DNA from: a virus | Lineage: Duplodnaviria; Heunggongvirae; Uroviricota; Caudoviricetes | DNA: 31,137 nucleotides | Virus record (IMG/VR): IMGVR_UViG_2565956719_000009 | Strand: one strand, 5' to 3' | Shown: positions 4,468 to 13,018 of the stretch, piece by piece | Layout of the letters: the number at the start of each line of letters is the position of its first letter | Numbering within the stretch: the first letter of the stretch is position 1 | Notes under the pieces: model-generated | What the model was told of the DNA's origin: nothing | Database searches by the model: none | The model's input: only the letters and a program-made list of their open reading frames with translations | Translations under genes and position numbers: made by a program

Positions 4468-4855
4468 TGTTTTTGGTTTTAACTGTTCCGCGTGCGCTTA
4501 GCCGCATTCACTGCATCACAAAATTCACTTTAAAAAGGGTGGCAGAGCAGTCACGGAGTAGAACTGATGCCACCAAAGACTACACATGGATATTGTGGCG
4601 GGGCTGTCACTTAAGCGTATGGTCAGCCTGACAACCCGGTGTCCTCAAGGGGAAGGAATAACCCCGCCATACTTACCGCCGCGCCATTTCGCGGATTGCC
4701 ACAACCGGAAGCGCACGGTCGAATTAAATTTAACGACAAAGTACAGAGAGACGAGCTTCTCCGTGTGCTTTCGCGTTATGCTCTGACTTTTCAGAGAAAT
4801 ATCCTTTCAGTAAACTGTCAGTGCCGGATGTTCACCCGTGTCCGTGGATTTGCCC

Positions 4856-11498: not shown

Positions 11499-12185
11499 AT
11501 GACCCCAATAAAAATATTTATGACTATTGCTGATTTCAAACGGCCTAAATTGGAGCTCCCAAACGGGGCAAACAAACTACTACTGCACTCTTGCTGTGCT
11601 CCATGTTCCGGTGAAGTGATGGAGGCGCTTCAGGCCTCGGGAATCGACTACACCATCTTTTTCTACAACCCGAACATTCATCCTCAGAAAGAGTATTTAA
11701 TTCGTAAGGATGAAAATATTCGCTTTGCTGAACAACACGGCGTGCCGTTTATCGATGCTGATTACGACACCGACAACTGGTTTGAACGTGCCAAAGGAAT
11801 GGAATGGGAGCCTGAGAGGGGGATCCGTTGTACCATGTGTTTTGACATGCGTTTTGAGCGGACAGCGTTGTACGCTGCTGAAAATGGTTTCAGTGTGATC
11901 AGCAGTTCACTGGGCATTTCACGCTGGAAAAATATGCAGCAGGTTAACGAGTGTGGGCGGCGAGCTGTTGCGCATTATCCGGGTATGGTGTACTGGGATT
12001 ATAACTGGCGCAAGCAGGGCGGCTCGTCCCGTATGATTGAAATCAGCAAGCGCGAAAAATTCTATCAGCAGGAATATTGTGGCTGTGTGTATTCTCTGCG
12101 CGATACCAATCTACACCGCAAATCTCAGGGACGCCCTCTTATCAAAATTGGCCAACTCCACTACGGAAAAGAAGAGAAGGAGTGA
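11499..12185 (+). CDS. queH: QueH-like epoxyqueuosine reductase (DUF208 family), prophage-borne
   Basis: 228 aa with the DUF208/QueH hallmarks as recalled: [39 protein letters not shown]; preceded by a 150-bp intergenic region with promoter-like hexamers. Confidence 0.7.
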
Positions 12186-12422
12186 TTTTATGGATCACCT
12201 TTCTGATTGATTTCATATTGGCGAGGTGACGTGAGTTAAGTAGAATGGCTGCGGGTGCTTGAGGCTATCTGTCTCAGGCATGAACACTGAAAGGCAGATA
12301 GAGAAAAGCCCCAGTTAACATTTCGCGTCCTGCAAGACGCTTAACATTAATCTGAGGCCCAATCTATGTCTCACAAATGTAGGTTAGCCTCTTACGTGCC
12401 GAAAGGCAAGGGGAAGCAGGCT

Positions 12423-12578
12423 ATGAAGCAGCAAAAGGCGATGTTAATCGCCCTGATCGTCATCTGTTTAACCGTCATAGTGACGGCACTGGTAACGAGG
12501 AAAGACCTCTGCGAGGTACGACTCCGAACCGGCCAGACGGAGGTCGCTGTCTTCACAGCTTACGAACCTGAGGAGTAA
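12423..12578 (+). CDS. hokD: Hok/Gef-family type I toxin, HokD/RelF-like
   Basis: MKQQKAMLIALIVICLTVIVTALVTRKDLCEVRLRTGQTEVAVFTAYEPEE: single TM helix plus conserved C-terminus, near-identical to RelF/HokD as recalled; track ORF extends in frame upstream to 12366. Confidence 0.85.
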   Translation: MKQQKAMLIALIVICLTVIVTALVTRKDLCEVRLRTGQTEVAVFTAYEPEE

Positions 12579-12646
12579 GAGACCTGGCGGGGGAGAAATC
12601 CCTCGCCACCTCTGATGTGTCAGGCATCCTCAACGCACCCGCACTT

Positions 12647-12674
12647 AACCCGCTTCGGCGGGTTTTGTTTTTTT
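12647..12674 (+). terminator. Rho-independent terminator downstream of hok
   Basis: AACCCGC-TTCG-GCGGGTT stem-loop followed by TTGTTTTTTT. Confidence 0.65.
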
Positions 12675-12745
12675 CTGGCATTCTGGTTTACAATTCGCAC
12701 GTCAGCCTGAACACCTGACACCTGCTGCGCCAGCAGAGAAAACAG

Positions 12746-13018
12746 ATGGCGCACAAAACCAAATTTCACAATTCTGATACCGACCTTGCCATCCGGCATG
12801 GGCGGCGTTCACACGCATTTAAAACCGACTGGTACCAACACCCACCATGTACTGAAGAACAGGCCGAATGGCTAATTCATAACTACCGCAGACGCGGATA
12901 CGAGATTAAGAAAGCCCTCAGCCTCGATTATCGTCACTGGATAATCTCCGTCAGGCTTCCTTACTCTGAACGCCCACCGCGTCCGTCCCGCACATTCCAG
13001 CAACGCATCTGGAGGTAA
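12746..13018 (+). CDS. Hypothetical small protein (Qin Rem position)
   Basis: 90-aa ORF immediately upstream of, and abutting, the DUF968-like gene; no motif recognised. Confidence 0.45.
   Translation: MAHKTKFHNSDTDLAIRHGRRSHAFKTDWYQHPPCTEEQAEWLIHNYRRRGYEIKKALSLDYRHWIISVRLPYSERPPRPSRTFQQRIWR

What the first reader, a model, noticed from the sequence alone, without database searches (positions are those of the whole stretch)
12186..12674. HokD/RelF-type type I toxin gene without relBE upstream, closed by a clean terminator
The 51-aa product is near-identical to RelF/HokD as I recall it, but the upstream neighbour is the QueH-like gene rather than relB-relE, so the hok gene is in a different context from K-12 Qin. 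The ORF extends in frame 19 codons upstream (12366), and the 240-bp leader could hold a Sok-like antisense RNA and fold-back elements; I could not identify them confidently. A strong intrinsic terminator follows at 12647-12674.
Basis: partly seen in the sequence, partly recalled or inferred. Interest (0 to 1): 0.4.

Follow-up and report, generated by a model that had tools for sequence, protein, structure and literature searches.

The report
Complete hok/sok toxin-antitoxin locus in prophage
This is an ordinary, already well-known small toxin gene (Hok) with its antisense-RNA antidote and folded mRNA control elements, carried by a lambda-like prophage of E. coli. It is the complete form of the locus that survives only as a stump (hokD/relF) in the laboratory strain K-12.

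Summary
Window 12423-12578 (+) encodes a 51-aa Hok/Gef toxin that matches K-12 HokD at 50 of 51 residues. A 70-aa in-frame extension starts at 12366, and a clean intrinsic terminator lies at 12647-12674.

The locus carries the full hok/sok regulatory set:
- hok promoter (12218-12246)
- 5' tac element (12253-12264), pairing with the 3' fbi element (12628-12640)
- ucb, the mok Shine-Dalgarno sequence, mok, and dcb
- a minus-strand Sok gene (about 12374 to 12300), whose promoter hexamers are identical to those of the experimentally validated sokW

K-12 hokD shares only 12410-12674, because relBE replaced everything upstream. The window therefore holds the complete locus and K-12 holds the truncated derivative. 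The downstream neighbour (DUF968/YdfU, then Q) is the same prophage slot as in Qin.

The locus is very common. At least 80% of it is present in 3848 of 5426 complete E. coli genomes, identical copies are annotated hokD, and phage records call it MokW/HokD. The QueH-hok junction occurs in 944 genomes.

Verdict: real, intact, already known, low interest. Expression, toxicity and biological role were not tested here.

The parts
12218..12246 (+). hok promoter: TTGGCG, 17-nt spacer, TAGAAT. The inferred transcription start is about 12253.
   Evidence: It is the only sigma-70-like site in 12150-12500. The -10 TAGAAT is conserved in hokW and Rac hok. The Rfam leader match begins at 12253.
12253..12672 (+). 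Full-length hok mRNA, about 420 nt (inferred ends).
   Evidence: Bounded by the Rfam match start and the terminator. MFE is -173.7 kcal/mol, z = -7.05. Homology to phage copies runs from about 12233 to about 12672.
12253..12264 (+). tac (translational activator element), GGGUGCUUGAGG, at the 5' end of the mRNA.
   Evidence: It pairs with fbi in the MFE of the full-length RNA and with ucb in the 3'-shortened RNA. Named by analogy with R1 (PMC9841398).
12265..12301 (+). 5' hairpin of the leader.
   Evidence: It is helix 2: 89.8% of cells paired, 2 pairs with changes on both sides.
12306..12312 (+). ucb (upstream complementary box / anti-SD of mok), AAGCCCC.
   Evidence: It pairs with tac in the shortened RNA, at 97.9% of cells across 40 loci but without variation. 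It can also pair with the mok SD at 4 of 5 positions.
12300..12374 (-). Sok antisense RNA, about 75 nt (ends inferred, +/- 3 nt): a 5' single-stranded tail, a long hairpin, then UUUUCUCU.
   Evidence: Fold is -31.4 kcal/mol, z = -5.1. It lies downstream of the Sok promoter. The sokW Northern probe YO-592 in PMC8621323 corresponds to 12343-12372.
12381..12409 (-). Sok promoter: -35 TTGCCT (complement of 12404-12409), 17-nt spacer, -10 TAACCT (complement of 12381-12386).
   Evidence: The hexamers and spacing are identical in hokW-sokW of an Stx2 phage. Mutagenic primers YO-421/422 of PMC8621323 replace exactly this -10. The R1-type locus has TTGCGC-17-TATCCT at the same place. The site is below the threshold of the generic promoter scan.
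12354..12357 (+). Shine-Dalgarno sequence of mok (GAGG).
   Evidence: It lies 8 nt upstream of the mok ATG and is conserved in 40 loci. It pairs with dcb (helix 5, 97.5% of cells).
12366..12578 (+). mok reading frame (70 codons), here in frame with hok.
   Evidence: In-frame 68-71-aa ORFs occur in 18 of the 39 further loci examined. Phage records annotate it as Mok/MokW.
12387..12391 (+). dcb (downstream complementary box), GCCUC.
   Evidence: It pairs with the mok SD in both predicted folds and helix 5. It overlaps the Sok promoter spacer, as in R1 (PMC9841398).
12408..12416 (+). Shine-Dalgarno region of hok (AAGGGGAAG).
   Evidence: Read directly from the sequence. 38 of 40 relatives have AAGGAGAAG or a variant.
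12423..12578 (+). hok toxin gene (51 aa), HokD allele.
   Evidence: Pfam HOK_GEF E 1.6e-22. phrog_251 'MokW-like host killing' E 4e-33. 50/51 identical to K-12 HokD. RefSeq names the identical protein WP_000813262.1 HokD.
12585..12608 (+). 3'-UTR hairpin, the likely protective 3' end of the processed mRNA.
   Evidence: Helices 19-20 show 74-91% of cells paired and 5 pairs with changes on both sides. The role is inferred from R1 (PMC9841398).
12628..12640 (+). fbi (fold-back inhibition element), CCUCAA-C-GCACCC, complementary to tac.
   Evidence: Paired with 12253-12264 in the MFE. Across 40 loci 90% of cells are paired against 38-43% when the partner is slid. Compensatory changes are U-A to C-G in 4 loci and G-C to C-G in 1.
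12647..12674 (+). Intrinsic terminator of hok mRNA.
   Evidence: 7-bp stem (5 G-C pairs), 4-nt loop, T-run. Helix 22 has 7 pairs with changes on both sides.

Best explanation
Window 12218-12674 is a complete, undisrupted hok/sok-type type I toxin-antitoxin cassette. It is the full-length form of the hokD locus, closely related to hokW-sokW, and sits between queH and the DUF968-rusA-Q genes of a lambdoid prophage.

The proposed mechanism is inferred from the R1 hok/sok paradigm. Only the sequence elements were tested here.

1. A stable mRNA of about 420 nt is made from the promoter at 12218-12246.
2. In the full-length form its 5' end (tac) is locked to the 3' fbi element. The mok ribosome-binding site is sequestered, so neither ribosomes nor Sok can engage.
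3. Slow 3' trimming removes fbi. tac then pairs with ucb, and the mok start region becomes accessible.
4. The short-lived antisense Sok RNA, transcribed from the minus strand across the mok start (about 12374 to 12300), pairs with this form. That pairing blocks mok translation, and therefore the coupled hok translation, and triggers duplex cleavage.
5. When Sok synthesis stops, for example on loss of the element or on prophage induction, Hok is made. It inserts into the inner membrane and depolarises or kills the cell.

K-12 hokD is a truncated derivative of this locus, in which relBE replaced the promoter, leader, mok and sok.
For: Toxin: HOK_GEF E 1.6e-22; 50/51 identical to HokD; phrog_251.

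Leader: RF01794 at 120.5 bits against a gathering score of 59, covering 12253-12428 on the hok-sense strand. The same model hits R1-like, hokW and Rac hok leaders, but nothing in K-12 Qin.

tac/fbi: paired in the MFE, z = -7. 90% of cells are paired in 40 loci from several genera, with compensatory changes, against about 41% in slid controls.

tac/ucb and SDmok/dcb: these stems are predicted once the 3' end is removed.

Sok: the promoter hexamers and spacing are identical to sokW, whose -10 was inactivated experimentally. A hairpin plus U-run follows, z = -5.1.

Whole structure: 78.9% of cells paired against 38-43% slid, with 57 pairs changed on both sides.

K-12 comparison: homology is limited to 12410-12674.

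Prevalence and annotation.

Function of a 92.6% identical locus (hokW-sokW): toxicity, antitoxin activity of the RNA, and induction on mitomycin C treatment (PMC8621323). HokD peptide is toxic on overexpression (bioRxiv 10.1101/2025.08.07.668861).
Against: Nothing here shows transcription, processing, Sok expression or toxicity of this particular copy.

- The Sok promoter is weak by consensus (-10 TAACCT, 3 of 6) and is missed by the generic scan.
- The loci were collected with a pattern that fixes bases 5-23 of the mRNA. Variation on the tac side was therefore restricted, and tac/ucb and ucb/SDmok show conservation only, no covariation.
- In the MFE of the full-length RNA the mok SD is paired with dcb rather than with ucb, as the R1 model has it.
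- The hok SD carries an unusual G (GGGG) at 12412.
- Chromosomal hok loci tested in the 1990s did not give post-segregational killing (as summarised in 10.1101/2025.08.07.668861).
Confidence: 0.9

Rival explanations
1. The cassette is intact in sequence but physiologically silent: a selfish or decaying passenger that never releases Hok under natural conditions, like several chromosomal hok loci.
For: [quoted passage not shown] The prophage in this window looks degraded: an IS3-family insertion in the lysis region and a ~1.5-kb deletion in the esterase gene relative to a 99.5% identical prophage. The hok SD has an atypical GGGG.
Against: Every regulatory element is present, and structure is maintained with compensatory changes. 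Identical or near-identical copies persist in thousands of genomes. The 92.6% identical hokW-sokW is active (PMC8621323).
Confidence: 0.2
2. Its biological role is that shown for hokW-sokW. On SOS-triggered prophage induction Sok disappears, Hok is made, and membrane damage assists or advances host lysis and phage release.
For: Same cassette type, same Sok promoter, 92.6% DNA identity. The experimental demonstration was made in Sp5 (PMC8621323). It is also located in a lambdoid prophage.
Against: The position in the phage genome differs. Here it is in the nin-like region before Q; in the Stx2 phage it lies near the attachment-site side. The effect in Sp5 was only two-fold. This prophage may no longer lyse, because an IS element sits in the lysis region.
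Confidence: 0.3
3. It acts as a prophage-retention (addiction) or abortive-infection module. Loss of the prophage, or shut-off of host transcription by an infecting lytic phage, removes Sok and Hok kills the cell.
For: This is the classical role of R1 hok/sok in plasmid maintenance, and T4 exclusion has been reported (cited in PMC8621323). hok genes are about four-fold enriched in prophages (bioRxiv 10.1101/2025.08.07.668861).
Against: The same preprint found no enrichment of hok next to defence systems. There is no direct evidence for this locus.
Confidence: 0.2
4. It is an orphan toxin gene without a working antitoxin or activation elements.
For: This is the state of K-12 hokD, where the leader is missing.
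Against: Here the complete leader, mok, Sok promoter and terminator, tac and fbi are all present.
Confidence: 0.02

Closest known systems
hokD (relF) of E. coli K-12 cryptic prophage Qin
   Same: The toxin is 50/51 identical. The DNA is nearly identical from 13 nt upstream of the ATG through the terminator. It occupies the same prophage slot, upstream of a DUF968/YdfU gene (79% identical) and Q.
   Different: K-12 lacks the promoter, tac, ucb, mok and sok, because relBE abuts the hok SD and there is no RF01794 match. The window has all of them, with queH upstream. The gene following hok (90-aa ORF, phrog_1212) is not a Rem homologue.
hokW-sokW of Stx2 prophage Sp5 / 933W-like phages (Takada et al. 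2021, PMC8621323)
   Same: 92.6% DNA identity over 12233-12650. The Sok promoter and leader architecture are identical, RF01794 scores 113.5 bits, and mok is in frame at 70 codons.
   Different: There are 7 substitutions in about 24 nt at the mok start / Sok 5' tail. The C-terminal residues and the sequence after fbi (the terminator) differ. The position in the phage genome differs.
hok/sok (parB) of plasmid R1
   Same: The same set and order of elements: tac, 5' hairpin, ucb, SDmok, mok, dcb, Sok promoter, hok, 3' hairpin, fbi, terminator. Both match the same Rfam and Pfam families.
   Different: The toxin is only 39% identical. The leader hairpin is shorter here, and the Sok hairpin is longer through a ~17-nt insert. 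tac/fbi reads GGGUGC/GCACCC instead of GGCGC/GCGCC. The carrier is a prophage, not a plasmid.
hokC/mokC (gef) and other chromosomal hok loci of E. coli
   Same: The toxin is 80% identical to HokC. mok is in frame in the loci with HokC-like toxins in my set (69-aa ORFs). The conserved leader blocks are shared.
   Different: The genomic sites differ. The K-12 copies are disrupted by IS elements (PMC12214031), whereas this copy is uninterrupted.

Membership tests
[quoted passage not shown] | Small (~50 aa) hydrophobic Hok/Gef toxin ORF | tested here: met
   PF01848 E 1.6e-22, full-length match 1-42/42; phrog_251 E 4e-33.
[quoted passage not shown] | Long structured hok mRNA leader of the conserved type | tested here: met
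   RF01794 at 120.5 bits against a gathering score of 59, model positions 1-157/157, at 12253-12428 (+).
[quoted passage not shown] | mok reading frame with its own SD, starting upstream of and overlapping hok | tested here: met
   ATG at 12366 preceded by GAGG at 12354-12357; 70 codons in frame with hok. The same arrangement occurs in 18 of the 39 further loci.
[quoted passage not shown] | cis-encoded antisense Sok gene (promoter, target overlap with the mok start, terminator) | tested here: met
   TTGCCT-17-TAACCT on the minus strand is identical to sokW (-10 defined by mutagenesis primers in PMC8621323). A hairpin plus U-run follows, z = -5.1. Expression itself was not tested.
[quoted passage not shown] | 5'-3' end pairing (tac/fbi) of the full-length mRNA | tested here: met
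   12253-12264 pairs with 12628-12640 in the MFE. 90% of cells are paired over 40 loci, with compensatory U-A/C-G and G-C/C-G changes and slid controls at about 41%.
[quoted passage not shown] | Alternative pairings tac/ucb and SDmok/dcb after 3' processing | tested here: inconclusive
   Both stems are predicted in the RNA lacking fbi. tac/ucb is 97.9% paired but invariant, so there is no covariation signal. SDmok/dcb is 97.5% paired with 2 compensated pairs. ucb/SDmok pairs at 4 of 5 positions and is invariant.
[quoted passage not shown] | Toxicity of Hok, and neutralisation by Sok through mok | not testable with these tools
   Shown for hokW-sokW (PMC8621323) and for HokD peptide overexpression (10.1101/2025.08.07.668861), but not for this copy.
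hokD (relF) as defined in K-12 | Toxin sequence | tested here: met
   50/51 identical. RefSeq names the identical protein HokD.
hokD (relF) as defined in K-12 | Third gene of the relBE-hokD operon | tested here: not met
   The upstream gene is queH. Homology with K-12 starts at about 12410. The relE-hokD junction occurs in 1165 genomes and the queH-hok junction in 944.
hokW-sokW (Sp5) | Near-identical cassette with the same Sok promoter | tested here: met
   92.6% identity over 83% of the query; identical promoter hexamers.
hokW-sokW (Sp5) | Same antisense recognition sequence (would predict cross-neutralisation) | tested here: not met
   There are 7 differences in the ~24 nt around the mok start / Sok 5' end. 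This is the most variable stretch of the transcript.

The most novel reading that the evidence does not exclude
Two readings are not excluded.

1. The complete hokD-type cassette in this class of ompW-adjacent lambdoid prophages has a role distinct from plasmid-type addiction. It could act as a lysis-timing or anti-superinfection device keyed to prophage induction.
2. The hypervariable 12 nt at the mok start / Sok 5' tail is under diversifying selection. That would keep the several hok/sok copies of one genome insulated from each other.

Related open points are the in-frame Mok-Hok fusion (a 70-aa toxin isoform) and the UACG Tyr47 codon (possible A-to-I recoding to Cys), which might add further control layers.
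Probability: 0.15. Interest if true: 0.3.

Novelty: already known. Interest (0 to 1): 0.08.

Why it matters
It matters little beyond correct annotation. The analysis shows that the window carries the ancestral, complete form of the locus that textbooks know from K-12 only as the truncated relF/hokD. RefSeq annotation lists only the 51-aa CDS and leaves out mok, Sok and the RNA elements.

It also flags that the Rfam family called 'sok' actually models the sense-strand hok leader, which can mislead strand assignment of the antitoxin.

For biology, it adds one more example to the well-documented enrichment of hok/sok cassettes in lambdoid prophages. The role of these cassettes (retention, lysis help or defence) is still only partly settled.

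Tried and rejected
- The search for related loci with an alignment of eight Hok proteins failed, because no stretch was conserved enough. I used a DNA pattern from the leader instead. That pattern also returned many chance matches in unrelated phyla, which I filtered out by requiring a Hok ORF downstream.
- A mononucleotide-shuffle control of the tac/3'-UTR duplex energy was only moderately discriminating for the window type (27 of 2000 shuffles as good) and uninformative for the R1-like locus. I relied on position and covariation instead.
- The generic promoter scan does not report the Sok promoter. Its identification rests on homology to sokW and R1.
- The pairing of ucb CCCC with the hok SD GGGG seen in the window's MFE is not conserved: pair 75-187 forms in only 2 of 40 loci. 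I rejected it as a family feature.
- The ucb/SDmok and tac/ucb pairings gave no covariation, because the columns are invariant.
- The idea that the 90-aa ORF after hok is Rem, as in Qin, was rejected: no similarity.
- The idea that the context is foreign to Qin was rejected on the YdfU match and gene order.
- The R1 hok/sok locus could not be reached by DNA similarity.

Full report
**Observation.** The region was read directly and its ORFs listed. An ORF at 12423-12578 (+) encodes the 51-aa peptide MKQQKAMLIALIVICLTVIVTALVTRKDLCEVRLRTGQTEVAVFTAYEPEE. It matches Pfam HOK_GEF over the whole model (E 1.6e-22) and PHROG 251 'MokW-like host killing' (E 4e-33). It is 50/51 identical to HokD of E. 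coli K-12. The frame is open upstream to an ATG at 12366, giving 70 aa. The upstream gene (11499-12185) is a QueH homologue. A 7-bp G+C-rich hairpin at 12647-12664 followed by a T-run is the only terminator-like site in 11900-12900. Every factual element of the finding is therefore correct.

**What the leader is.** A scan of the whole window against Rfam gives a full-length match of RF01794 ('sok') at 12253-12428 on the plus strand, 120.5 bits against a gathering score of 59. The same model hits the hok-sense strand of an R1-type plasmid locus (87 bits), of hokW in an Stx2 phage (113.5 bits) and of a Rac-type phage hok (111 bits). It hits nothing in the K-12 Qin region that contains hokD. Despite its name, the family models the hok mRNA leader from the transcription start to the hok AUG. 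The actual antitoxin is on the other strand.

**Elements on the plus strand.**
- A sigma-70-like promoter, TTGGCG-17-TAGAAT, ends at 12246. This is 7 nt before the start of the Rfam match, and it is the only such site in 12150-12500.
- The predicted ~420-nt transcript (12253-12672) folds with z = -7.05.
- In the minimum-free-energy (MFE) structure its first 12 nt (GGGUGCUUGAGG, tac) pair with CCUCAA-C-GCACCC at 12628-12640 (fbi), just upstream of the terminator.
- When the 3' end including fbi is removed, the 5' end instead pairs with AAGCCCC at 12306-12312 (ucb). The mok Shine-Dalgarno sequence (GAGG, 12354-12357) sits in a hairpin with GCCUC at 12387-12391 (dcb).
- These are the pairings described for the translatable, Sok-accessible form of R1 hok mRNA (PMC9841398).

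**Elements on the minus strand.** TTGCCT-17-TAACCT (complement of 12381-12409) sits where R1-type loci have TTGCGC-17-TATCCT. It is identical in hokW-sokW. The mutagenic primers used by Takada et al. to make a promoter-less sokW replace exactly this TAACCT(A). Their sokW Northern probe corresponds to window 12343-12372. Downstream of the promoter, the minus strand folds into a 9-nt single-stranded tail and a long hairpin followed by UUUUCUCU (-31.4 kcal/mol, z = -5.1). This is the architecture of Sok, and I place Sok at about 12374 to 12300.

**Comparative test.** A leader pattern retrieved hok loci from one genome per species. After filtering for a downstream Hok ORF, 39 distinct loci remained. 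They come from Escherichia, Citrobacter, Klebsiella, Kluyvera, Pseudocitrobacter, Yersinia, Photorhabdus, Aeromonas and others, together with phage and plasmid copies. I aligned them with the window.
- In every one, the 5' end has a strong complement 42-79 nt after the hok stop codon.
- On the alignment the tac/fbi helix is paired in 90% of cells. Compensatory changes occur at position 4 (U-A to C-G in 4 loci) and position 1 (G-C to C-G in 1 locus).
- The whole projected structure is paired in 78.9% of cells against 38-43% when partners are slid, with 57 pairs changed on both sides.
- Caveat: the retrieval pattern fixed bases 5-23 of the mRNA, so tac itself could vary little. tac/ucb and ucb/SDmok are conserved but invariant and so carry no covariation information.

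**Relation to K-12.** Alignment with the Qin region shows near-identity only from about 12410 (13 nt before the hok ATG) to about 12674, the end of the terminator. Upstream of that point K-12 has relE. This agrees with the literature statement that K-12 hokD was inactivated by a genomic rearrangement that removed components of the canonical system (PMC12214031). Downstream, the window has a 90-aa ORF of unknown function (phrog_1212, not a Rem homologue). It is followed by a DUF968 protein 79% identical to YdfU of Qin, then RusA and Q. Together with DicF on the opposite strand, this is the same prophage architecture as Qin. The window shows the complete state and K-12 the truncated one.

**Prevalence.**
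- The 505-nt query is covered at 80% or more in 3848 of 5426 complete E. coli genomes. The median is 2 matching places per genome that has any match (partial matches included). 100% identical copies are annotated 'type I toxin-antitoxin system toxin HokD'.
- The queH-hok junction occurs in 944 genomes and the relE-hokD junction in 1165.
- 102 phage records hold it, annotated MokW, HokD, host killer or gef 'phage maintenance protein', including PPompW-type and Stx phages.
- In strain AR_0013 the 99.5% identical prophage lies next to ompW.
- hokD-like loci at 87-88% identity also sit on ~90-105-kb non-mobilizable plasmids.
- A recent survey reports hok in thousands of prophages and phages, with about four-fold enrichment in prophages (10.1101/2025.08.07.668861).

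**Mechanism and role.** Presence and integrity of the elements are shown. The mechanism is inferred by homology to R1 (PMC9841398) and hokW-sokW (PMC8621323):
1. A stable, end-paired, untranslatable mRNA is made.
2. Slow 3' trimming refolds it into a translatable form.
3. That form is neutralised by the unstable Sok RNA through the mok start.
4. Hok is made when Sok supply ceases.

The biological role in a prophage is not settled. For the 92.6% identical hokW-sokW, Sok disappears and Hok appears after mitomycin C in a RecA-dependent way, and phage release is about two-fold higher with the locus. Retention/addiction, abortive infection and physiological silence remain alternatives. Older tests of chromosomal hok loci found no post-segregational killing.

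**Verdict.** It is a textbook system in a common allele and a common context, so it rates as already known and of low interest.

Noticed in passing
window 12561-12564: The Tyr47 codon of Hok is TAC followed by G (UACG). The equivalent Tyr codon of K-12 hokD is reported to be A-to-I edited to Cys at about 6% (PMC12214031).
   Followed up: partly
window 12361-12372: Among eight close relatives this is the most variable 12-nt stretch of the transcript upstream of the terminator tail: 0.31 differences per site against 0.14 or less elsewhere. It covers the mok start codon and the 5' tail of Sok, consistent with an antisense-specificity determinant.
   Followed up: partly
window 12412: The hok Shine-Dalgarno sequence reads GGGG here. 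Only one other locus of 40 (E. albertii L008) shares this, and most of the others have GGAG. In the MFE the extra G pairs with ucb.
   Followed up: no
window 12253-12428 (+), and L003, L004, L005: Rfam RF01794, named 'sok antitoxin', matches the hok-sense strand in every locus tested. It models the hok mRNA leader, not the antisense RNA, so its hits give the wrong strand for the antitoxin.
   Followed up: yes
window 12746-13018 (+): A 90-aa ORF of unknown function (phrog_1212, E 2e-36; no Pfam or NCBIfam match) sits where rem sits in Qin, but it is not similar to Rem.
   Followed up: partly
window 12620-12799 (-): RefSeq annotates a 59-aa 'hypothetical protein' on the minus strand of the identical sequence in strain AR_0013. 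It overlaps the hok terminator and the start of the next gene, and is probably a spurious call.
   Followed up: no
window 18218-20250: Relative to the 99.5% identical ompW-adjacent prophage of E. coli AR_0013, the window lacks about 1.5 kb of the SASA-family esterase gene. It also carries an IS3-family (IS629-like) element at about 18940-20249, with an ALIL pseudoknot at 19798-19914 (-), in the lysis region. The prophage may be defective.
   Followed up: partly
window 4537-4588 (-), 16789-17035 (+), 17114-17304 (+), 17582-17791 (+): The window also holds a DicF sRNA gene, a cluster of three tRNA genes (tRNA-Ile, -Arg, -Arg in the 99.5% identical AR_0013 prophage) downstream of Q and a methyltransferase gene, and two tandem copies of the prophage sRNA STnc100 (161 and 136 bits).
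   Followed up: no
phage record PP818812.1 (hit H32): A record labelled 'Actinobacillus phage vB_Apl-pPE4' holds a 98.2% identical hok locus. This is an unexpected host label for an E. coli-type cassette.
   Followed up: no
plasmid hits H53-H79: hokD-like loci at 87-88% identity occur on many ~90-105-kb non-mobilizable E. coli, Salmonella and Cronobacter plasmids. These may be phage-plasmids.
   Followed up: no
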